Of a stretch of DNA of 64,000 nt, positions 9,696 to 61,043 are shown one piece after another. The notes beneath the pieces are model-generated. The model saw nothing but the letters and a program-made list of their open reading frames with translations. It ran no database searches and was not told the origin of the DNA. Position numbers and translations under genes: made by a program. Within the stretch, counting starts at the first letter, position 1, and every line of letters starts with the position of its first letter. Source of the DNA: Parcubacteria group bacterium Greene0714_7 (lineage in GTDB: Bacteria; Patescibacteriota; Minisyncoccia; Phycocordibacterales; Phycocordibacteraceae); contig VMHB01000002.1 in the NCBI GenBank assembly GCA_007378985.1, forward strand, positions 27,320-91,319, in the 5' to 3' direction.

Positions 9696-9722
9696 AATCC
9701 CGTTTTCGCGGGATTTTTTATA
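9696..9722. terminator. Bidirectional rho-independent terminator between convergent rplT and the MBL gene
   Basis: Hairpin aatcccg-ttttcg-cgggatt followed by TTTTTAT. Confidence 0.6.
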
Positions 9723-11139
9723 CAATAGGAATTTCGTATGTCTCCCCTTCTCTTGGTACATCAACGGGAATATTGAGGAACCCTGCGATGCGTTGCGCTA
9801 GAAACGTTGCTGACTCTGTTTCCCCCAATATTACAAAAACATGCTTAGGGTTAACATTTTCAGCAAAGGTCATGAGATCATCTCTGTCAGCGTGTGCAGA
9901 AAATCCGTCCGTTGATAGTATTGTCGCGCGCGCCTTAACCTCAACACCATCTATATTTACTGTTCGTGCGCCGTCTTTAAGTCTCCGACCTAAACTCCCA
10001 GGCACTTGATAGCCCACCAGGAGGAGCACCGTTGATTTCTGCGGTAGATACTTCGCTTCGTGTCTTCTAATACGCCCACCATGGCTCATACCAGCTCCTG
10101 CGATGATTATTTTAGGGCCGGGGTGCCTGTCTATCGCATCCGACTCGTCTGGGTGGACACTCACTTTTAAACTTGGGAATGAAAATGGATCGTCTCCGCC
10201 GAGAAGTCGAGTGCGTATATCAGCACGAAGAAATTCTGGATGCTTTCTGTACACATCAGTTACTTTGGCAGCAAGAGGTGAATCCATAAATACTGCTACT
10301 TCGGGAATAACACCGTTAGTAATTGCCTTATCTAAAGAAGCAAGAATTATTTGTGTGCGTTCAAGTGAAAATGCAGGTATAAGAAGCGTACCTTGGCTCC
10401 CAATAATAACTTTAACAGCCGACAAGAGCGCCTGCTCACTCTCTTCAAGTGAGCTGTGTGTTTTATTGCCGTATACACTTTCTGTTATAAGGTATTCTAC
10501 ATCGGCAGGCACTTCCCTATCGGGCACAAGAGCGGCAGGCACACGACCTAAATCTCCTGTAAACAAAATTTTCTTTCCAAAAATATCAAGGAGGATGGTG
10601 GCAGATCCTAAAATGTGTCCAGCATTGTGAAATGTTGCAGTAACTCCAGGCGCGAACTCTAATGTTTTGCCATATGTCGCCTCATCAATATATTCAACTG
10701 CCCGTATAGCATCTTCAATAGCGTACGGTGGTTCATCGTTGCATCGCTTTGCTTCGAGGGCAATTATCTTTACAGAGTCCTCAAGCATTATTGGAATAAG
10801 TGCTTTGGTGGGAGCCGTTGCAAACGCACGCCCTGTAAAACCGTTCTTTACAAGTTTAGGGAATAACCCAATGTGATCAGCGTGTGCGTGAGTAAAAAGA
10901 ACTATATCAATCGTTGCGGGATCGTATGAAAATATTTCCCTATTAGCCGATTCACAAAATCGCTCACCCTGCGCTAGTCCACAATCAATAAGTATGCGTG
11001 TAGTAACCTCTCCATTTTTTGCTTCTACAAGGAAATTTGAACCCGTAACACGTCTCGCACCTCGTGCAAACAAAATAGAAATCGATTTCATTGAATCATC
11101 ATACCTTAGACCAGAGAGCGCAACATCGGGAAAATTCAA
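9718..11139 (-). CDS. MBL-fold beta-CASP family ribonuclease (RNase J/CPSF-like)
   Basis: FTHAHADHIG metallo-beta-lactamase motif plus C-terminal beta-CASP-like region; 473 aa. Confidence 0.75.
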   Translation of the reverse strand: MNFPDVALSGLRYDDSMKSISILFARGARRVTGSNFLVEAKNGEVTTRILIDCGLAQGERFCESANREIFSYDPATIDIVLFTHAHADHIGLFPKLVKNGFTGRAFATAPTKALIPIMLEDSVKIIALEAKRCNDEPPYAIEDAIRAVEYIDEATYGKTLEFAPGVTATFHNAGHILGSATILLDIFGKKILFTGDLGRVPAALVPDREVPADVEYLITESVYGNKTHSSLEESEQALLSAVKVIIGSQGTLLIPAFSLERTQIILASLDKAITNGVIPEVAVFMDSPLAAKVTDVYRKHPEFLRADIRTRLLGGDDPFSFPSLKVSVHPDESDAIDRHPGPKIIIAGAGMSHGGRIRRHEAKYLPQKSTVLLLVGYQVPGSLGRRLKDGARTVNIDGVEVKARATILSTDGFSAHADRDDLMTFAENVNPKHVFVILGETESATFLAQRIAGFLNIPVDVPREGETYEIPIV

Positions 11140-11149
11140 AAGTAAAAAT

Positions 11150-11169
11150 TGTATGATATATCATACAGA
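11150..11169. promoter_or_regulatory. Palindromic operator-like box TGTATGATATATCATACAG
   Basis: 18-20 nt palindrome 22 nt upstream of the MBL RNase start. A near-identical copy sits at the ComEC start (47938..47957). Confidence 0.5.
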
Positions 11170-11193
11170 CATCTAAGGTAGCCATAGCGCGGA

Positions 11194-11250
11194 AGAATTA
11201 CCACACCCTCACATATACGATATATCGTATATGTGAGGGTGTGGTAATTC
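11194..11250. repeat. 57-bp perfect palindrome (GAATTACCACACCCTCACATATACGATATATCGTATATGTGAGGGTGTGGTAATTC)
   Basis: Arms of 28 bp pair without a single mismatch. The centre ACGATATATCGT shares the GATATATC core with the operator-like box. Confidence 0.9.
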
Positions 11251-11263
11251 TCTTTGTTCATAT

Positions 11264-11297
11264 AAAAATCCGCCTTTGATATATTCAAGGGCGGATT
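11264..11297 (-). terminator. Rho-independent terminator downstream of ndk (minus strand)
   Basis: Stem aatccgcc...ggcggatt followed on the minus strand by a TTTTATAT run. Confidence 0.55.
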
Positions 11298-11310
11298 TAG
11301 AAGGATCAGT

Positions 11311-11444
11311 GACGGAGTATTAACCTTAGAGCCGAAGCTCCAGGTGGGTGCTCGCAGCATCTCGCGCATCGGATTCTCCGGAGAGATTCACCAGCGCGGA
11401 GCGATATAAAGCTCCCTAAAGTTTTTCAACGAGGTTAATACTCC
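11311..11444. ncRNA. Candidate structured RNA element bounded by 15-bp inverted repeat (gacggagtattaacc / ggttaatactccgtc)
   Basis: Perfect 15-bp arms enclose about 105 nt rich in internal palindromes (ctccggag, gcgcgcatc...). No convincing ORF and no family recognised. Confidence 0.3.
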
Positions 11445-11551
11445 GTCACTAACCCCTCCCTCCATTCTAGCAGGTTAGCCACTAGTGGTTAGGGTTTAGG
11501 GGAAAACAAAAGTGCATTCTCCCTAATGGCTAAAAACTAAACCCTATTGGC

Positions 11552-12187
11552 TTATTCAAGGATTCCATCCAAATTCACATCGTAGAGAATTTGCTCCTGG
11601 ACGATACGGTATTTCAATATTTCTTCGGGCTTAAACCACACAGCAATTTCACGTGATGCTTCTTCTGGGGACTCTGAACAGTGGACGAGGTTTCTAACGG
11701 CACGACTCTGTACCGATGAATGGTCGTAAGAATCCACAGTGTAGTCACCACGAATAGTTCCAACATCTGATGTCTTTGGCTCTGTTGCACCCACAAGTTT
11801 CTTCACAACGGCTACTGATTCATTCCCTTCAACAACCATCATGAGTACAGGACCTGCAGTCATGAATTTCACTATTGAATCTATTATTTCTTTACCGTAC
11901 CCAAGCGCATCCTTCTCTATTGGCAGATTGTGCGTGGTGCGGTCATTTAATATCCGAGTTCCTTTTTCAAGAAACCACTTCTCATCTTTGTTGTAGTGAC
12001 GCACAAGTTGGTCTTCCGTGGCAAGACCAAATTTGAATGCAACAAATTTCAATCCTGTTCGCTCTATGCGCTTCATTATCTCTCCGATAAGAGAACGCTG
12101 TACTGCGTCAGGCTTCAATATAATAAGCGTACGCTCATTTTCAAATTGTGCATTGGTGTTCATTGAAGCGACTATAGCATTCTGCAA
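11552..12187 (-). CDS. ndk: Nucleoside diphosphate kinase (extended form)
   Basis: Conserved NDK core (RTLIILKPDAVQRSLIGEIMKRIERTGLKFVAFKF...) and the active-site region (NLVHCSESPEEASREIAVWF). Confidence 0.8.
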   Translation of the reverse strand: MQNAIVASMNTNAQFENERTLIILKPDAVQRSLIGEIMKRIERTGLKFVAFKFGLATEDQLVRHYNKDEKWFLEKGTRILNDRTTHNLPIEKDALGYGKEIIDSIVKFMTAGPVLMMVVEGNESVAVVKKLVGATEPKTSDVGTIRGDYTVDSYDHSSVQSRAVRNLVHCSESPEEASREIAVWFKPEEILKYRIVQEQILYDVNLDGILE

Positions 12188-12202
12188 GGCGAAACGCCAT
12201 GC

Positions 12203-12222
12203 GAAGGGGTTAGGGTTTAGAG
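12203..12222 (-). repeat. CCCTAA-like repeat copy (minus-strand ctctaaaccctaaccccttc) about 15 nt upstream of ndk start
   Basis: Same motif family as the rplT copy, oriented with the downstream gene. Confidence 0.7.
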
Positions 12223-12244
12223 AAGAACGAATTCAAAGCCCCTT

Positions 12245-12271
12245 GATCCCTGCGGATCCGATGAAGCGTCG
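12245..12271 (+). repeat. Two-hairpin UNCG element copy a (GATCC-CTGC-GGATC + CGATG-AAG-CGTCG)
   Basis: It shares structure and sequence with the copies at 54170..54196 and 43817..43843, with compensatory base changes between copies. Confidence 0.65.
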
Positions 12272-12300
12272 CCTAAACACTAAACCCTGTCCACTAACCC

Positions 12301-26296: not shown

Positions 26297-26367
26297 GTGC
26301 GCACTAAGAAAAATGCGCCCTTACGAGCTTTGGGCATACTATCCCAATCACCCACCCACTGTCAATC

Positions 26368-27169
26368 TCATTTGTGCAACCTCCGGAGGTTGCACAAATG
26401 AGACACTAAAGCCAAAATGAAAAAATTACAAAATAATACCTTGGAGCTCTTCGACTAAAAGTTTTTTGCTGGTTGTTTTAACAAAATCGGCGTAATTACT
26501 TTTTGCTGTTATAGCAAACTGCCCCGTGATGATCTCGGGCACAATGAGTCCTCCCCATCGGTTCGCATCAGTAAAATCTTGGAGTGACGACCAAGGATAC
26601 TCGGATTCCCTTCCTGACCATTCTCGTATGTCACTGGGGTTTCTATGAATATAGGCGGATGCATATAAAAGCTGGGAATCTGTTTTTACATGCACCGCTT
26701 TGTACGGACCCTGAAATACATGTCCTGAGGTTTCATACTTAGTATTATAATATTTTGTATATCCGTCAGCTACGCGTTGCATGTAGCGTGCCATTCCTCC
26801 TTCAATGGTTTCTTTGACCAACAAGTGAAAGTGGTTCGACATAAGACAAAAGCACACCACTTCCACAAAACGACCCTCAATGATGGCCTCGATATCTTCG
26901 TTAGGGACAGAAAAACCAATATCCGGAACAAAACTTTCTGTAATCCGATGTATGTTTTTAAATTGATGAGGGGATTGGAGGAATAACACATTAAAAAGGA
27001 ATCGACGCCAGTCCCCTTTTTCTTTAAAAATAGTCTGCCTGTGCGCACCGCGATTGAACACATGGTAGTACTCCCCCGGAGCGATTCCTTCTCGTGACTT
27101 TAGCAATACCTTAGCCATCAACTCAGGCTACCACACCTCTGTGCAACCTCCAGAGGTTGCACAGAGAGG
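26368..27169. mobile_element. IS200/IS605-family (RAYT-like) element: Y1 transposase flanked by matching subterminal hairpin palindromes
   Basis: Left palindrome tcatttgtgcaacctccggaggttgcacaaatga (26368..26401) and right palindrome cctctgtgcaacctccagaggttgcacagagagg (27136..27169) share the core TGTGCAACCTCC/GGAGGTTGCACA. They bracket a HUH/Y1 transposase gene. Confidence 0.75.
26426..27121 (-). CDS. HUH Y1 (IS200-like / REP-associated tyrosine) transposase
   Basis: YYHVFNRGAHRQTIF, HUH motif CLMSNHFHLLVK, and Tyr-containing YKAVHV...YIHRNPS. Longer (231 aa) than classic IS200 TnpA. Confidence 0.75.
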   Translation of the reverse strand: MMAKVLLKSREGIAPGEYYHVFNRGAHRQTIFKEKGDWRRFLFNVLFLQSPHQFKNIHRITESFVPDIGFSVPNEDIEAIIEGRFVEVVCFCLMSNHFHLLVKETIEGGMARYMQRVADGYTKYYNTKYETSGHVFQGPYKAVHVKTDSQLLYASAYIHRNPSDIREWSGRESEYPWSSLQDFTDANRWGGLIVPEIITGQFAITAKSNYADFVKTTSKKLLVEELQGIIL

Positions 27170-36466: not shown

Positions 36467-36511
36467 TATACACAAAGCCGTAGAAAGATGCAAGAGAAAC
36501 AAAAAACCGCC

Positions 36512-36540
36512 CTATTGGGCGGTTTTTTGTTTCTCAAGGA
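36512..36540. terminator. Bidirectional rho-independent terminator immediately after rpsJ (aaaaaaccgccc-tatt-gggcggtttttt)
   Basis: Perfect GC-rich stem flanked by A6 and T6 runs. Confidence 0.7.
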
Positions 36541-42936: not shown

Positions 42937-42947
42937 ATTTAGCTAGC

Positions 42948-43010
42948 CAATAGGGTATAGGGTATAGGGTAACAGCATTAAAATCTAGTGGCTAAACCCT
43001 AGTGGCTAGT
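42948..43010. repeat. Divergent-promoter-region copies of the CCCTAA-like repeat (minus: ccaatagggtatagggtatagggtaac; plus: ctaaaccctagtggctagtggc)
   Basis: Each copy sits in sense orientation upstream of its own divergent gene. Confidence 0.7.
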
Positions 43011-44577: not shown

Positions 44578-44595
44578 GTAATAGGAATCCTCCCT

Positions 44596-44630
44596 AAACC
44601 CTAGTGGCTAACAACTAAACCCTGAGCGTG
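44596..44630 (+). repeat. CCCTAA-like repeat copy (cctaaaccctagtggctaacaactaaaccctgag) upstream of rpmB
   Basis: Motif family. Confidence 0.7.
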
Positions 44631-44671
44631 GGATTTACTTTTCATTTTTAGGATGGTATCCTCTAAAAACT

Positions 44672-46591: not shown

Positions 46592-47954
46592 AACGGAAAA
46601 ACAACAAGCCTGCCACTCCATACGCAAACCCAAGCACCATCAAAAGTGGCCACATCCACTCTCGTGGAATAGGGAGAGAGGCAAACGGAAGTATCCCAAA
46701 AAATGTTGCGATAGAAATAATATAAGAAAGGATTCCGTACGCAAAGATGCTTAGTGGGAAAGCGAGTACCGGAGAGACAATTGAGGTAATCGACGCAAAG
46801 AAACCAACAAACATAGCGAGCGGAACTGCGGGTAAGACAAGTGCATTTGCTGGAAGAAATACGAGAGACACTGCGCCTACAGAAAATATAAGAAGTGGCA
46901 ATACCGTCACCTGCGTTGCAAGAGTAGTTGAAACAATTTCACGAAATGGGAAATATTTAAAATCAGGAATGAACTTCAAATGGTCTGCAATTTTTGCAGA
47001 AAATAATATAAGTCCGAGCGTTGCAAGAATAGAGAGTTGGAATGAGAGATCATACAAAACAATAAACGGATTCATGACTGCCATTGTGGCGGCAGCAATG
47101 GCGAGCATACGTAGTGCTGCCTTTGGCCGATGCAAAACAGTCGCAACCATCATGAGGAGTGCCATGATGAGTGCGCGAATAGTTGTCTCAGATCCGCCAG
47201 TCATCACTGCAAAGCCAATAACAAAAACCGCAGAGAAACTATATGCAACTTTGCGTGAAAATATTTTTAGAAAAACAAAAGAAATCCACTGAATCACGAG
47301 CGCAACGTTGTAGCCAGAGAGAACAATAATGTGCACGACTCCTGCATTTCGAAATGCTCCCGTTATCTTTTCACCCAACGATTGTTTTTCACCGAGAAGT
47401 AAACCCGCAAGAAGTGCGGATTGAGGTTCTGGAACTGCACGCTCAATTCCTTTAATAAATAAATGTTTAACAGATAGAAGTCCCGCAACAATTGGATGCC
47501 CCTCTCCTGTTGCCAGTTTCGTAACCTGCGGAAATGAAATGATGTAGAGAATGTTATGTGCACGAAGATACTTTGGATAATTAAATGTTCGCCCTGAGTC
47601 AGTTTCAAAAGGCTCAGGTTTTTTAAGTTTTCCTTTTACACTAATGCGATCACCATAGACGGCAGTCTCAAACGAATCCGCAAAGAGAAGTACTCGTACT
47701 TTCTCTTGAGCAGAAACACCATTCAACTTTTGCACTTTCACAACAAGGTGTGTGGTGCGTTCACGCTGGTCAGAGTCTCTCACTACAACGCCTTCAATGA
47801 CAACACTAGTATCAACTGAGTCTTCAAAAATCGAAGGAAGTTTTTCGGGTACCAATACTGAATACACTCCTGCACCAACTACGAGCCCGACACAAAGTAT
47901 CGGCACGACATTTCGAATAAAAAAACTCTTGAAAAACTCTGTATGATATATCAT
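46545..47954 (-). CDS. comEC: ComEC/Rec2 DNA-uptake channel (membrane domains only)
   Basis: DUF4131-like N-terminus plus polytopic competence domain (VVHIIVLSGYNVALV). No fused MBL domain. Confidence 0.8.
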   Translation of the reverse strand: MIYHTEFFKSFFIRNVVPILCVGLVVGAGVYSVLVPEKLPSIFEDSVDTSVVIEGVVVRDSDQRERTTHLVVKVQKLNGVSAQEKVRVLLFADSFETAVYGDRISVKGKLKKPEPFETDSGRTFNYPKYLRAHNILYIISFPQVTKLATGEGHPIVAGLLSVKHLFIKGIERAVPEPQSALLAGLLLGEKQSLGEKITGAFRNAGVVHIIVLSGYNVALVIQWISFVFLKIFSRKVAYSFSAVFVIGFAVMTGGSETTIRALIMALLMMVATVLHRPKAALRMLAIAAATMAVMNPFIVLYDLSFQLSILATLGLILFSAKIADHLKFIPDFKYFPFREIVSTTLATQVTVLPLLIFSVGAVSLVFLPANALVLPAVPLAMFVGFFASITSIVSPVLAFPLSIFAYGILSYIISIATFFGILPFASLPIPREWMWPLLMVLGFAYGVAGLLFFRFRKGNVIEPQRHSNF

Positions 47955-47964
47955 ACAGAGTTTT
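47931..47964. promoter_or_regulatory. Perfect palindrome aaaaactctgtatgatatatcatacagagttttt at ComEC start (contains the TGTATGATATATCATACA box)
   Basis: A 34-bp perfect palindrome with the same 18-nt core as 11150..11169. It could act as an operator and/or a bidirectional terminator between comEC and rnhA. Confidence 0.5.
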
Positions 47965-47994
47965 TAGGAGAGAAAAATGCAGGCATACTGACAA

Positions 47995-50156: not shown

Positions 50157-50165
50157 TTCGTGAAG

Positions 50166-50256
50166 TGTTTAGGGATAAGTGTTTAGCGTTTAGGGAAATT
50201 CCGAAGCAAAATCATGAGCTGTTGCTCTATACGCTAAACCCTATACACTAAACGCT
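50166..50256. repeat. Divergent-region CCCTAA-like repeat copies (gtgtttagggataagtgtttagcgtttaggg / cgctaaaccctatacactaaacgct)
   Basis: The G-rich copy is adjacent to recJ (minus) and the C-rich copy ends at the HIT gene ATG. Confidence 0.7.
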
Positions 50257-52849: not shown

Positions 52850-52901
52850 ATTCATTGAGAAATCGTAACATGTTTGAGAAGGGTTTAGGAAAGAGCTTTG
52901 A

Positions 52902-52945
52902 ATTGGAATTTTCCCTAAACGCTAACCACTAAACCCTAACCCCCA
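52902..52945 (+). repeat. CCCTAA-like repeat copy (ccctaaacgctaaccactaaaccctaacccccactag)
   Basis: Motif family, located at the 3' end of the pilin-like gene. Confidence 0.7.
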
Positions 52946-52952
52946 CTAGTAG

Positions 52953-58339: not shown

Positions 58340-58375
58340 CAGGGTTGAGCATTTAGTGAATAGGGTTTAGTGGAG
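58340..58375. repeat. CCCTAA-like repeat copy (G-rich orientation gcagggttgagcatttagtgaatagggtttagtgg) upstream of pilB
   Basis: Motif family. Confidence 0.6.
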
Positions 58376-58626
58376 GAAAATTGAACTGCTTCAATTTTCC
58401 TCCGATCCCGTTTCGGGAACCGCCGATGTTGAGCTGAAGCGAGACAGGCGGTAGGAGGGCGAAATATTAAAAATAAAATTAAAAATAAAATATCAAGAAG
58501 AAAAATTAAAGATAACGCAAAAAAATACCAAAAAGTGGCACTAAAAAATGCCTAAGGGGGAGTACTTGACAGAGTGATTTAAGTGTAGTACCCTGCGCGA
58601 ATTAGAAATACAAAGAAATTATATAT

Positions 58627-58968: not shown

Positions 58969-58989
58969 AGATCTTTGGCTCTTTTACAT

Positions 58990-59017
58990 CAAAAAAGACA
59001 CTTAGGGTGTCTTTTTT
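58990..59017. terminator. Bidirectional rho-independent terminator (aaaaaagacac-ttaggg-tgtctttttt)
   Basis: Perfect 9-bp stem flanked by A/T runs. Confidence 0.7.
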
Positions 59018-59024
59018 GATGTAA

Positions 59025-59053: not shown

Positions 59054-59126
59054 TTCGAAGTCAGTTTCCCTCCATGGGTCCGCGTAGCGGGCCTCTTTTT
59101 TTACCAAAATGGAGAGAAATTGAAGC

Positions 59127-59160
59127 TTTCTTATCCCTAAACGCTAGTCACTAACCCCTA
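59127..59160 (+). repeat. CCCTAA-like repeat copy (ccctaaacgctagtcactaacccctaac) 6 nt upstream of nusA ATG
   Basis: Motif family. Confidence 0.7.
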
Positions 59161-59166
59161 ACTAAT

Positions 59167-60994: not shown

Positions 60995-61003
60995 CCTCAA
61001 AAT

Positions 61004-61043
61004 CCCCGCTTTTCTCTAGAGAAAAGCGGGGATTTTGATTTTT
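61004..61043 (+). terminator. Rho-independent terminator after ppa (ccccgcttttctctagagaaaagcgggg + T-run)
   Basis: Perfect stem followed by attttgatttttt. Confidence 0.7.

What the first reader, a model, noticed from the sequence alone, without database searches (positions are those of the whole stretch)
11194..11250. 57-bp perfect palindrome (28-bp arms) in the ndk / beta-CASP RNase intergenic region
GAATTACCACACCCTCACATATACGATATATCGTATATGTGAGGGTGTGGTAATTC pairs end to end without a mismatch. Perfect palindromes this long are unstable in many bacteria, so its persistence implies function or recent origin. Candidates include a cruciform-forming regulatory site, a MITE-like or IS-end remnant, a protein-binding site for a dimeric regulator related to the GATATATC box, or a strong bidirectional terminator. 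It sits within a 410-nt gap that also contains the ndk terminator and a 135-nt inverted-repeat-bounded element.
Basis: seen in the sequence. Interest (0 to 1): 0.55.

Follow-up and report, generated by a model that had tools for sequence, protein, structure and literature searches.

The report
Giant palindrome around a GATATATC operator
A real, perfectly mirrored 58-base DNA stretch upstream of a nuclease gene in a tiny uncultured bacterium (Patescibacteria) looks like an overgrown copy of a short 'GATATATC' site that sits next to Trp-repressor-like regulator genes across this group. It is therefore most likely a regulatory protein site, not a transposon scar, a chromosome end or an assembly error.

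Summary
The palindrome is real but slightly larger than reported: 58 bp, 29-nt arms, window 11194-11251, single copy. An independent k=31 assembly of the same run breaks exactly where a perfect 29+29 palindrome must break a de Bruijn graph.

A sister lineage (88% nucleotide identity) carries a 40-bp perfect palindrome at the same spot. Its 26-bp core is identical. Every difference in the outer arms is mirrored on the other arm.

Other close relatives lack it, yet ndk, a 6S-like RNA and the beta-CASP gene remain adjacent. This rules out a telomere or a false join.

Its centre, TATACGATATATCGTATA, is a 14/18 variant of a perfect 18-mer, TGTATGATATATCATACA. That 18-mer lies 64 bp away, always 67.5 nt before the nuclease start codon.

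In metagenomes the 18-mer flanks Trp_repressor (YerC-like) genes in four distinct CPR-like loci. Three further YerC-like loci carry GATATATC palindromes, one with a CG half-site.

Best reading (about 0.45): an auxiliary or paralogue-specific GATATATC-box operator whose arms were lengthened and kept perfect by hairpin-templated copying.

Unverified: whether this genome encodes the regulator, and any binding. Not supported: IS/MITE end, canonical terminator, artefact.

The parts
11194..11251 (.). 58-bp perfect palindrome (29-nt arms, centre between 11222 and 11223)
   Evidence: A homologous 40-bp perfect palindrome occurs in L084/L085/L086.
11214..11231 (.). Core TATACGATATATCGTATA: a GATATATC-box variant, 14/18 identical to the canonical 18-mer. 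All 4 differences are mirrored transitions.
   Evidence: The wider 26-bp core CACATATACGATATATCGTATATGTG (11210-11235) is identical in the sister lineage.
11150..11167 (.). Canonical GATATATC box, the 18-bp perfect palindrome TGTATGATATATCATACA. Its centre is 67.5 nt upstream of the A of the nuclease ATG and 64 bp from the centre of the big palindrome.
   Evidence: same -67.5 position in window, L084 and L089. It flanks Trp_repressor genes in metagenomes.
11098..11103 (-). TATGAT, a -10-like hexamer 6 nt before the ATG, inside the conserved block GGTATGATGA. This suggests a leaderless mRNA (inferred).
   Evidence: Conserved in window, L084 and L089 while the surrounding spacer has diverged. 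Relatives without palindromes have TGCTACTAT 7 nt before the ATG instead.
9718..11091 (-). Beta-CASP / MBL-fold nuclease gene (457 aa from ATG 11091; the ORF opens at TTG 11139)
   Evidence: Pfam Beta-Casp, RMMBL and Lactamase_B.
11266..11298 (-). Intrinsic terminator (stem AAATCCGCC.../...GGCGGATTT, then TTTTTAT) ending the 6S-like RNA / ndk transcript
   Evidence: The homologous terminator in L084 carries compensating changes.
11299..11458 (-). Conserved structured RNA closed by a roughly 27-bp stem, probably a 6S RNA
   Evidence: Weak full-length match to Rfam RF00013 (15.1 bits, E = 0.78, model 1-187). In an 8-species alignment, 15 of 50 pairs show compensatory changes.
11552..12163 (-). 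ndk (nucleoside diphosphate kinase), the upstream gene on the same strand
   Evidence: Pfam NDK, E = 4e-40.
47932..47965 (.). Second canonical box in the window: the same 18-mer at the centre of a 34-bp perfect palindrome, AAAAACTC[18-mer]GAGTTTTT, between rnhA and comEC
   Evidence: The same site is a 46-bp perfect palindrome after the rnhA stop in locus L147. L147's contig has the same length, 86,589 bp, as the one carrying L003, so the two probably come from the same genome.

Best explanation
The 58-bp palindrome is a member of a family I call the GATATATC box. These are dyad-symmetric DNA sites that, in Patescibacteria (CPR), accompany genes of a YerC/TrpR-like helix-turn-helix protein. 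They are most simply read as that protein's operators.

In this genome the nuclease gene has a canonical box, TGTATGATATATCATACA, fixed at -67.5 from its start codon. The big palindrome provides a second, variant box (TATACGATATATCGTATA) 64 bp further upstream.

Proposed working: a dimer of the YerC-like regulator, or of a paralogue with a different flank preference, binds the conserved 26-bp core. Together with the proximal box it controls the weak, -35-less and probably leaderless promoter of the beta-CASP nuclease. It may also block read-through from the 6S-like RNA/ndk unit.

The extra length and the perfection of the arms are not needed for binding. They are explained by intrastrand hairpin formation at the symmetric core, with one arm copied from the other. 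This is quasipalindrome template switching or hairpin-templated repair. It lengthens the palindrome and makes the arms evolve together.

Shown:
- the structure;
- its authenticity;
- its mirrored evolution;
- the association between the box and the regulator gene.

Inferred:
- binding to this variant;
- the regulatory outcome;
- the copying mechanism.
For: **1. The centre is a GATATATC box.** All three GATATATC copies in the 64-kb window sit in perfect palindromes of 18, 58 and 34 bp.

**2. The core resembles the 18-mer.** It matches at 14/18 positions and lies 64 bp from it (70 bp in the sister lineage).

**3. The 18-mer flanks Trp_repressor genes.** It lies on both sides of a PF01371 gene in four distinct metagenomic loci: L090/L158, L097, L099 and L155.

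**4. The reverse test also holds.** All three YerC-like loci fetched by protein carry 2-3 GATATATC palindromes next to the gene (L164, L166, L168-171). Two YerC-like proteins, probably paralogues on one 101-kb contig (inferred from equal contig length), each have their own flank variant. The Adlerbacteria upstream site, ATTATGATATATCGTAAT, has a CG half-site like the big core.

**5. The family fits.** TrpR-family operators are 18-20 bp palindromes of the form TGTA...TACA (PMC9413887).

**6. The boxes are conserved where spacers are not.** The 26-bp core, the 18-mer and GGTATGATGA are identical between the window and L084 while the spacers have diverged. The -67.5 position holds in three lineages.

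**7. The arms evolve in mirror image.** The three ungapped differences in the shared 20-nt arm (positions 14, 19 and 20) are all mirrored. L084's right flank still holds GGTAA, which lies inside the window's palindrome, while its left flank does not mirror it.

**8. Long perfect extensions recur.** 9 of 73 distinct 18-mer sites extend by 5 or more perfect pairs, against about 0.2 expected. One of the nine, L152, runs into a contig end and is probably a fold-back artefact.

**9. The symmetry looks DNA-level.** Extensions stop abruptly, with no G.U-tolerant continuation.

**10. The copying mechanism is known.** Template switching at quasipalindromes is established (PMC7202029).
Against: - No YerC/TrpR-like gene lies in the window or in any fetched locus of this lineage. 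Two protein searches did not place one in the related genomes.
- The core has C/G where 15 of the 17 other box half-sites I saw near regulator genes have T/A (TGATATATCA). It also lacks the TGTA/TACA ends.
- The spacing between the two boxes differs by 6 bp between lineages (64 vs 70). This argues against a phase-dependent loop.
- Many boxes lie just after stop codons, some between convergent genes (L133). Promoter control therefore cannot be their only role.
- Close relatives do without both palindromes.
- No binding or expression data exist.
Confidence: 0.45

Rival explanations
1. It works as a nucleic-acid hairpin rather than a protein site. A very stable stem-loop between the 6S-like RNA unit and the nuclease promoter would act on read-through transcripts as an insulator, back-up terminator, 3'-end protector or RNase III-type processing site. 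Alternatively it would act as a DNA cruciform.
For: - The hairpin is extremely stable: -46.1 kcal/mol as RNA and -30.2 as DNA.
- It sits 14 nt after an intrinsic terminator, on the path of read-through into a co-directional gene.
- The outer arms keep pairing while their sequence changes, as in a structural stem.
- Other GATATATC palindromes have A-tract/T-tract flanks and lie 13-65 nt after stop codons, like bidirectional terminators.
Against: - No U-tract follows on the gene strand (UCCGCGC...). The scan's terminator calls rest on weak tails.
- None of the 29 pairs is a wobble or a mismatch, and the symmetry ends abruptly. Selected RNA stems usually tolerate G.U.
- The core is sequence-conserved, not merely paired.
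- It lies upstream of the likely leaderless promoter, so it is probably not in the nuclease mRNA.
Confidence: 0.2
2. It has no function. A decayed or duplicated GATATATC box seeded a hairpin, and replication template switching blew it up into a long perfect palindrome. It persists because this lineage tolerates palindromes.
For: - Absent from the nearest relative (93% nucleotide identity) and from four other relatives that have a working short promoter region.
- Sharp boundaries between perfect and random sequence are the signature of templated copying.
- Length varies from 40 to 58 bp, and homology to L084 is one-sided at the edge.
- The core deviates from the canonical box.
Against: - The 26-bp core is 13/13 identical per arm between lineages whose neighbouring spacers are only about half identical and carry indels.
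- The element keeps its place next to the canonical box in both lineages.
Confidence: 0.2
3. It is a remnant or target of a mobile element. Candidates are abutted terminal inverted repeats of a MITE/IS, or a hairpin recognised by the IS200-like Y1 (HUH) transposase encoded 15 kb away.
For: - A Y1_Tnp gene at 26426-27121 is flanked by its own hairpins.
- Palindromic hairpins are the substrates of such enzymes (my knowledge of IS200/IS605 and REP/RAYT systems).
Against: - Single copy in the window.
- No arm match in the viral or JGI metagenome collections.
- No similarity to the hairpins flanking the Y1 gene beyond a chance 9-mer.
- No target-site duplication at the edges.
- Same locus in two lineages rather than scattered copies.
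Confidence: 0.04
4. It is a site for a DNA-breaking and rejoining enzyme that needs perfect dyad symmetry. One option is a telomere-resolvase (protelomerase) target. Another is the virtual junction of two hairpin telomeres wrongly closed by the assembler.
For: - The size and perfect symmetry recall phage N15 telRL (56 bp; my knowledge).
- A k=31 graph cannot tell L-palindrome-R from two hairpin ends that share the arm (my reasoning).
Against: - ndk, the 6S-like RNA and the nuclease gene are adjacent in every relative, including five without the palindrome.
- Two JGI assemblies read through the 40-bp version with both flanks.
- GC skew does not turn here.
- The ten window proteins I scanned include no resolvase-like one, but most window ORFs were not scanned.
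Confidence: 0.02

Closest known systems
TrpR-family operators (E. coli trp operator TGTACTAGTTAACTAGTACA; HisR/YerC sites in Firmicutes and Proteobacteria)
   Same: - An 18-20 bp dyad-symmetric site.
- The canonical CPR box begins with TGTA and ends with TACA, like the TrpR and proteobacterial HisR motifs (PMC9413887).
- Sites lie next to the regulator's own gene, which suggests autoregulation as in about half of hisR genes.
- The associated protein matches Pfam Trp_repressor above its cut-off.
   Different: - The centre is GATATATC and the inner spacing is 10, not 12.
- The CPR proteins are 135-170 aa, against under 100 aa for HisR/TrpR.
- Boxes often lie after stop codons and inside long perfect palindromes.
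- The 58-bp element has CG in place of TG/CA and lacks the TGTA ends.
- The effector and the regulon are unknown.
- No paper in the searched library describes this box.
CIRCE (HrcA operator): a conserved perfect inverted repeat acting at both DNA and mRNA level
   Same: A long, highly conserved inverted repeat in a promoter-proximal region. It could work both as a protein site and as a hairpin (comparison from my own knowledge).
   Different: CIRCE has 9-bp arms separated by a 9-bp spacer and a fixed sequence across phyla. Here there is no spacer, the arms are 29 bp, and the outer arms are lineage-specific.
Quasipalindrome correction by replication template switching (E. coli and yeast mutational hotspots)
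   Same: A mechanism that copies one arm of an inverted repeat from the other and so makes imperfect repeats perfect (PMC7202029). It fits the mirrored substitutions, the mirrored length difference and the sharp edges seen here.
   Different: That process is known as a source of point mutations in laboratory reporters. It is not known as a long-term force that maintains or lengthens natural operator-centred palindromes. Its action here is inferred only.
Phage N15/PY54/phiKO2 telRL protelomerase sites
   Same: Perfect palindromes of about 56 bp with an alternating pyrimidine-purine centre (my knowledge).
   Different: Here the site is internal to conserved synteny and absent in close relatives with the same gene order. 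Assemblies read through it, and no resolvase is in view.

Membership tests
GATATATC-box / TrpR(YerC)-family operator | Dyad-symmetric site of about 18-20 bp centred on GATATATC | tested here: met
   The core TATACGATATATCGTATA at 11214-11231 is perfectly symmetric and centred on GATATATC.
GATATATC-box / TrpR(YerC)-family operator | T and A directly flanking the centre (TGATATATCA), as in the boxes next to regulator genes | tested here: not met
   The core has CGATATATCG. Among the half-sites seen near YerC-like genes, only one (Adlerbacteria, ATATCGTAAT) and an intragenic TCGATATATCGA in L166 carry CG.
GATATATC-box / TrpR(YerC)-family operator | TGTA...TACA outer ends of the lineage's canonical box | tested here: not met
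   The ends are TATA...TATA. However, outer positions differ between the boxes of different regulators (ATTA, AGTT, TGTA), so they may set paralogue specificity.
GATATATC-box / TrpR(YerC)-family operator | Location in a regulatory intergenic region, conserved across lineages | tested here: met
   It lies 131.5 nt (window) or 137.5 nt (L084) upstream of the nuclease ATG, next to a canonical box at -67.5. The 26-bp core is identical in both lineages.
GATATATC-box / TrpR(YerC)-family operator | A cognate Trp_repressor-family gene in the same genome | not testable with these tools
   None is found in the 64-kb window or in the fetched loci of this lineage. The rest of the genome is not available.
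GATATATC-box / TrpR(YerC)-family operator | Specific binding by the regulator | not testable with these tools
   Needs EMSA, DAP-seq or ChIP.
Intrinsic (rho-independent) terminator | G+C-rich stem-loop directly followed by a U-tract on the transcribed strand | tested here: not met
   The gene strand continues UCCGCGCUAUGG. The + strand tail is AATTCTCTTT. A canonical terminator (stem plus UUUUUAU) lies 14 nt upstream.
IS / MITE terminal repeats or REP-RAYT element | Several copies in the genome, association with a transposase, target-site duplication | tested here: not met
   Single copy in the window. No arm hits in the viral or JGI metagenome scans. No duplication at the edges. The Y1_Tnp gene's own hairpins are unrelated. 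The whole genome could not be searched.
Protelomerase target / hairpin telomere junction | Marks a replicon end: synteny breaks there, fold-back reads occur, a resolvase gene is present | tested here: not met
   Synteny across the site is kept in all relatives, with or without the palindrome. JGI assemblies read through it. Reads and the full gene set were not available.
Assembly artefact | Absent from independent assemblies or reads | tested here: not met
   Logan contigs carry each arm plus its flank and stop at the predicted 31-mers. A homologous palindrome is present in three other datasets.
6S RNA (neighbouring element 11299-11458) | A roughly 160-190 nt RNA with a long closing stem and a central region, matching Rfam RF00013 | tested here: inconclusive
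   The match is full-length but far below threshold: 15.1 bits against a gathering score of 46.4, E = 0.78. The structure is conserved, with 15 of 50 pairs covarying across 8 species.

The most novel reading that the evidence does not exclude
GATATATC boxes in CPR genomes are seeds of self-extending palindromes. The symmetric operator folds back during replication or repair, and one arm is repeatedly copied from the other. The palindrome therefore grows outward (18 to 28, 34, 46 and 58 bp), and its arms evolve in strict concert.

The long forms may gain a second role. They could be protein-gated hairpins or cruciforms, or terminators whose apex is the binding site of the YerC-like protein. That would link one small regulator to DNA-metabolism genes (nuclease, comEC/rnhA, recA/ssb, dnaE) in organisms with almost no known regulation.
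Probability: 0.25. Interest if true: 0.65.

Novelty: new variant of a known kind. Interest (0 to 1): 0.5.

Why it matters
Almost nothing is known about gene regulation in Patescibacteria (CPR). They have tiny genomes and few recognisable transcription factors, and most of them remain uncultured.

This finding leads to a testable pair: a YerC/TrpR-like protein and an 18-bp box. The box sequence is identical in lineages whose regulators share only about a third of their residues. It lies next to DNA-uptake, nuclease and replication/repair genes.

The 58-bp element is the extreme case of a second phenomenon. Operator-centred palindromes here have arms that change only in mirror image. This gives a natural system for studying how long perfect palindromes arise and survive.

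There is also a practical point. Such palindromes break k=31 assemblies at predictable positions, which fragments CPR contigs at regulatory regions.

Tried and rejected
- **Rfam at gathering thresholds on the whole window:** nothing.
- **Rfam at E-value threshold:** the palindrome hits only miRNA-precursor hairpin models, far below their cut-offs and equally on both strands. This is a generic-hairpin artefact.
- **tRNA scan:** none, so this is not a tRNA-linked integration site.
- **Exact scans for the core or arm:** 0 hits in the viral collection and 0 in JGI metagenomes. The metagenome pattern included window-specific outer-arm bases, so it could not have found the L084-type palindrome.
- **Sigma-70 promoter across the 18-mer (TTAGAT-17-TACAAT):** rejected. 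The putative -10 ends in T, A, T or A in different sites (TACAAT, TACAAA, TACAGT, TACAGA), and the -35 is not conserved.
- **Known boxes (NrdR, Fur/Zur, LexA, FNR/CRP, ARG, dif, parS):** compared from memory; none fits in spacing or sequence.
- **The 9-mer TACCACACC shared with the flank of the Y1 transposase gene:** expected by chance in 128 kb of sequence.
- **Hairpin-telomere idea:** rejected on synteny and on read-through assemblies.
- **Locating a YerC-like gene in this lineage by contig length:** tried in two protein searches, without success.
- **A self-correction:** my first identity check of L001 against the window was void because of an indexing slip. It was redone correctly: 0 mismatches over 11,223 nt.

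Full report
**1. Observation**

The window holds a perfect palindrome of 58 bp at 11194-11251: AGAATTACCACACCCTCACATATACGATA|TATCGTATATGTGAGGGTGTGGTAATTCT. It has 29-nt arms and no spacer.

The arm occurs nowhere else in the window, and no shuffle produces a match. As a single strand it folds at -46.1 kcal/mol (RNA) or -30.2 kcal/mol (DNA). The z-scores are about -14 and -15.

**2. Context**

Both neighbouring genes are on the minus strand. On that strand the order is as follows:

| Feature | Window coordinates |
|---|---|
| ndk | 12163 to 11552 |
| Structured RNA, about 160 nt | 11458 to 11299 |
| Canonical intrinsic terminator plus UUUUUAU | 11298 to 11266 |
| Spacer | 14 nt |
| The 58-bp palindrome | 11251 to 11194 |
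| Spacer | 26 nt |
| 18-bp perfect palindrome TGTATGATATATCATACA | 11167 to 11150 |
| Spacer | 58 nt |
| Beta-CASP nuclease gene | ATG 11091 to 9718 |

The organism is a Patescibacteria/Paceibacteria MAG with 45% G+C.

**3. Real, or an artefact?**

The nuclease and ndk proteins are also encoded on two Logan contigs from run SRR8863435. Both contigs are 100% identical to the window. They end at window 11223 and 11222.

In a k=31 de Bruijn graph, a perfect 29+29 palindrome makes the 31-mers inside it their own reverse-complement partners. The flank unitigs must then stop at exactly those two 31-mers. That Logan uses k=31 is from my own knowledge. So both arm-plus-flank junctions exist in the reads.

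A k=31 graph alone cannot tell an internal palindrome from two hairpin telomeres that share the arm. Comparative data settle this point (section 4).

**4. Relatives**

| Locus | Nuclease aa identity to window | Region upstream of the nuclease gene |
|---|---|---|
| L084, L085 (two JGI metagenomes), L086 (Logan) | 89% (88% nt over 5.7 kb) | Same layout, with a 40-bp perfect palindrome CTACCCACACATATACGATATATCGTATATGTGTGGGTAG and the identical 18-mer |
| L089 | 83% | 18-mer only, inside a 28-bp perfect palindrome |
| L003 | 95% (93% nt in flanking genes) | No palindromes; terminator, then about 45 nt ending TGCTACTATAGAG-N3-ATG |
| L083 | 90% | Same as L003 |
| L088 | 89% | Same as L003 |
| L087 | 84% | Same as L003 |
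| L167 | 74% | Same as L003 |

- The JGI assemblies read through the 40-bp palindrome. The Logan contig L086 starts at its 11th base, again the predicted 31-mer.
- ndk, the RNA and the nuclease gene are adjacent in all these relatives. The site is therefore not a replicon end or a false join.
- The palindrome-bearing regulatory module is distributed patchily relative to the nuclease phylogeny. This implies that the module has been exchanged or replaced by recombination among these species.

**5. How the palindrome evolves**

Between the window and L084 the inner 26 bp (CACATATACGATATATCGTATATGTG) are identical. In the shared 20-nt arm the differences lie at positions 14, 19 and 20 from the centre. 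Alternatively they can be read as one substitution plus a one-base length change. Each is mirrored exactly on the other arm, so both palindromes stay perfect.

L084's right flank still reads GGTAA, which lies inside the window's palindrome. Its left flank does not mirror this. So either the window extended its palindrome by copying, or L084 lost one side.

The neighbouring spacers are only about half identical and differ in length (26 vs 41 nt). By contrast, the core, the 18-mer and the block GGTATGATGA just before the ATG are unchanged.

Across 20 GATATATC-centred palindromes the symmetry ends abruptly. There is no strand-consistent run of G.U-type pairs beyond the edge. This fits symmetry kept at the DNA level, or recent templated copying. 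It fits an RNA stem under selection less well.

**6. The GATATATC box**

GATATATC occurs three times in the window, against 0.56 expected. Every copy is the centre of a perfect palindrome:
- the 18-mer;
- the 58-mer;
- a 34-mer, AAAAACTC[18-mer]GAGTTTTT, between rnhA and comEC at 47932-47965.

The core of the 58-mer matches the 18-mer at 14/18 positions. The four differences are two mirrored transitions per half-site. The 18-mer centre is exactly 67.5 nt upstream of the nuclease ATG in the window, L084 and L089.

An exact scan of JGI metagenomes found the 18-mer in 74 stretches.
- In L090/L158, L097, L099 and L155 two copies, 463-526 bp apart, bracket a 135-151 aa gene. One copy lies 7-77 nt before the start codon and one 13-65 nt after the stop codon.
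- All four gene products match Pfam Trp_repressor (PF01371) above the curated cut-off. JGI calls relatives 'uncharacterized protein YerC'.

The reverse test also holds. All three YerC-like loci fetched by protein carry GATATATC palindromes beside the gene:
- L164: AATTATGATATATCATAATT, abutting the ATG, plus a second box;
- L166: three AGTTTGATATATCAAACT-type boxes;
- a Candidatus Adlerbacteria locus (L168-171): ATTATGATATATCGTAAT upstream and ATTATGATATATCATAAT downstream.

Three points follow:
- The common element is (T/C)GATATATC(A/G).
- The outer positions differ between regulators.
- A CG half-site like that of the 58-mer occurs in a site positioned for autoregulation.

TrpR-family operators are known to be 18-20 bp palindromes. 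Examples are TrpR TGTAcTnGTnnACnAgTACA and proteobacterial HisR TGTAnTA...TnTTACA (PMC9413887). I found no paper on this CPR box.

**7. Long perfect extensions are a family trait**

Among 73 distinct 18-mer sites, 9 extend by 5 or more further perfect pairs. About 0.2 would be expected. Examples:
- 46 bp in L147, after rnhA. The contig probably belongs to the L003 genome, because the two contigs have the same length (86,589 bp).
- 38 bp in L122.
- 36 bp in L124, between recA and ssb.
- 34 bp in the window.
- 32 bp in L106, after dnaE.

The ninth case, L152 (a 39-pair extension, 96 bp), runs into a contig end and is probably a fold-back artefact. Neighbouring genes include rnhA/comEC, recA/ssb, dnaE, thrS, folD and the nuclease. 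Several boxes lie just after stop codons, and one lies between convergent genes. Promoter control therefore cannot be their only role.

**8. Mechanism**

My best reading, at about 0.45, has two parts.
- The 58-bp palindrome is an auxiliary or paralogue-specific GATATATC-box site for a YerC/TrpR-like dimer. It lies upstream of the proximal box and controls a nuclease promoter that lacks a -35 element. That promoter is probably leaderless, with TATGAT 6 nt before the ATG.
- The arms are lengthened and kept perfect by hairpin-templated copying, a known process at quasipalindromes (PMC7202029).

Rivals:

| Rival | Confidence |
|---|---|
| Purely structural hairpin, insulator or processing site | 0.2 |
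| Functionless by-product of template switching | 0.2 |
| Mobile-element remnant | 0.04 |
| Resolvase or telomere site | 0.02 |

Main weaknesses:
- No regulator gene has been seen in this lineage.
- The core has CG where canonical boxes have TG/CA.
- The spacing between the boxes is 64 vs 70 bp in the two lineages.
- There are no binding or expression data.

**9. Verdict**

The IS/MITE end, the canonical terminator and the assembly artefact are not supported.

I rate it a new variant of a known kind: a TrpR-family operator palindrome in an unusual, self-perfecting long form. Interest is 0.5. The interest comes mainly from the regulator-operator pair it exposes in CPR bacteria and from the mirrored evolution of the arms.

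Noticed in passing
It has a full-length but sub-threshold match to Rfam 6S RNA (15.1 bits, E = 0.78). In an 8-species alignment, 15 of 50 pairs show compensatory changes. It is probably an unannotated CPR 6S RNA.
   Followed up: partly
window 26426-27121 (minus strand), with hairpins at 26366-26403 and about 27136-27169: An IS200-like Y1_Tnp (HUH) gene (Pfam E = 6e-8) sits between the ribosomal-protein operon genes. It is flanked on both sides by hairpins that share TGTGCAACCTCC/GGAGGTTGCACA. The downstream one is a 38-bp perfect palindrome. This resembles a RAYT/REP-like or IS200-type unit and is unrelated in sequence to the 58-bp palindrome.
   Followed up: partly
window 11465-11551, 12188-12300, 42937-43001, 44578-44640, 50157-50256, 52880-52952, 58353-58380, 59120-59166: Many intergenic regions carry short, telomere-like repeats of the TTTAGGG/CCCTAAA type (e.g. 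GGTTAGGGTTTAGGGG ... CTAAACCCTA), often as inverted pairs around a short hairpin. Relatives have different species-specific repeats at the same places, for example AGCTTCC repeats in L083 and L087. Their nature is unknown.
   Followed up: no
L090-L163 (JGI metagenome hits), L164-L171: The exact 18-mer TGTATGATATATCATACA is conserved across divergent CPR-like lineages and brackets YerC/TrpR-like genes. Other boxes sit beside DNA-metabolism genes: rnhA/comEC, recA/ssb, dnaE and the beta-CASP nuclease. Others sit beside thrS and folD. This hints at an undescribed regulon. In some non-CPR-looking contigs (L104, L118, L121, L160) the 18-mer overlaps a TTGACA-16/17-TATGAT or TTGACA-17-TATCAT promoter.
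   Followed up: partly
window 11089-11294 versus L003 3916-4000, L083, L087, L088, L167: Two alternative regulatory modules precede the nuclease gene in closely related species. One is long, with palindromes and TATGAT. The other is short, with TGCTACTATAGAG. Both place a -10-like hexamer 6-7 nt before the ATG, which suggests leaderless mRNAs. Their distribution conflicts with the gene phylogeny, which suggests recombination. L003 also has a roughly 560-bp GNAT acetyltransferase insertion between ndk and the RNA.
   Followed up: partly
L001 start, L002 end, L086 start; L152 1636-1812: Logan (k=31) contigs end exactly at the 31-mers predicted for perfect palindromes longer than k, so such sites fragment CPR assemblies in a predictable way. 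L152 shows a 96-bp 'palindrome' that runs into a contig end, which is probably a fold-back assembly artefact.
   Followed up: partly
window 60997-61038, 173-225, 36494-36535, 58984-59024: There are several further perfect palindromes of 38-53 bp with A-tract/T-tract flanks and G+C-rich stems. They look like ordinary bidirectional intrinsic terminators and do not contain GATATATC.
   Followed up: no
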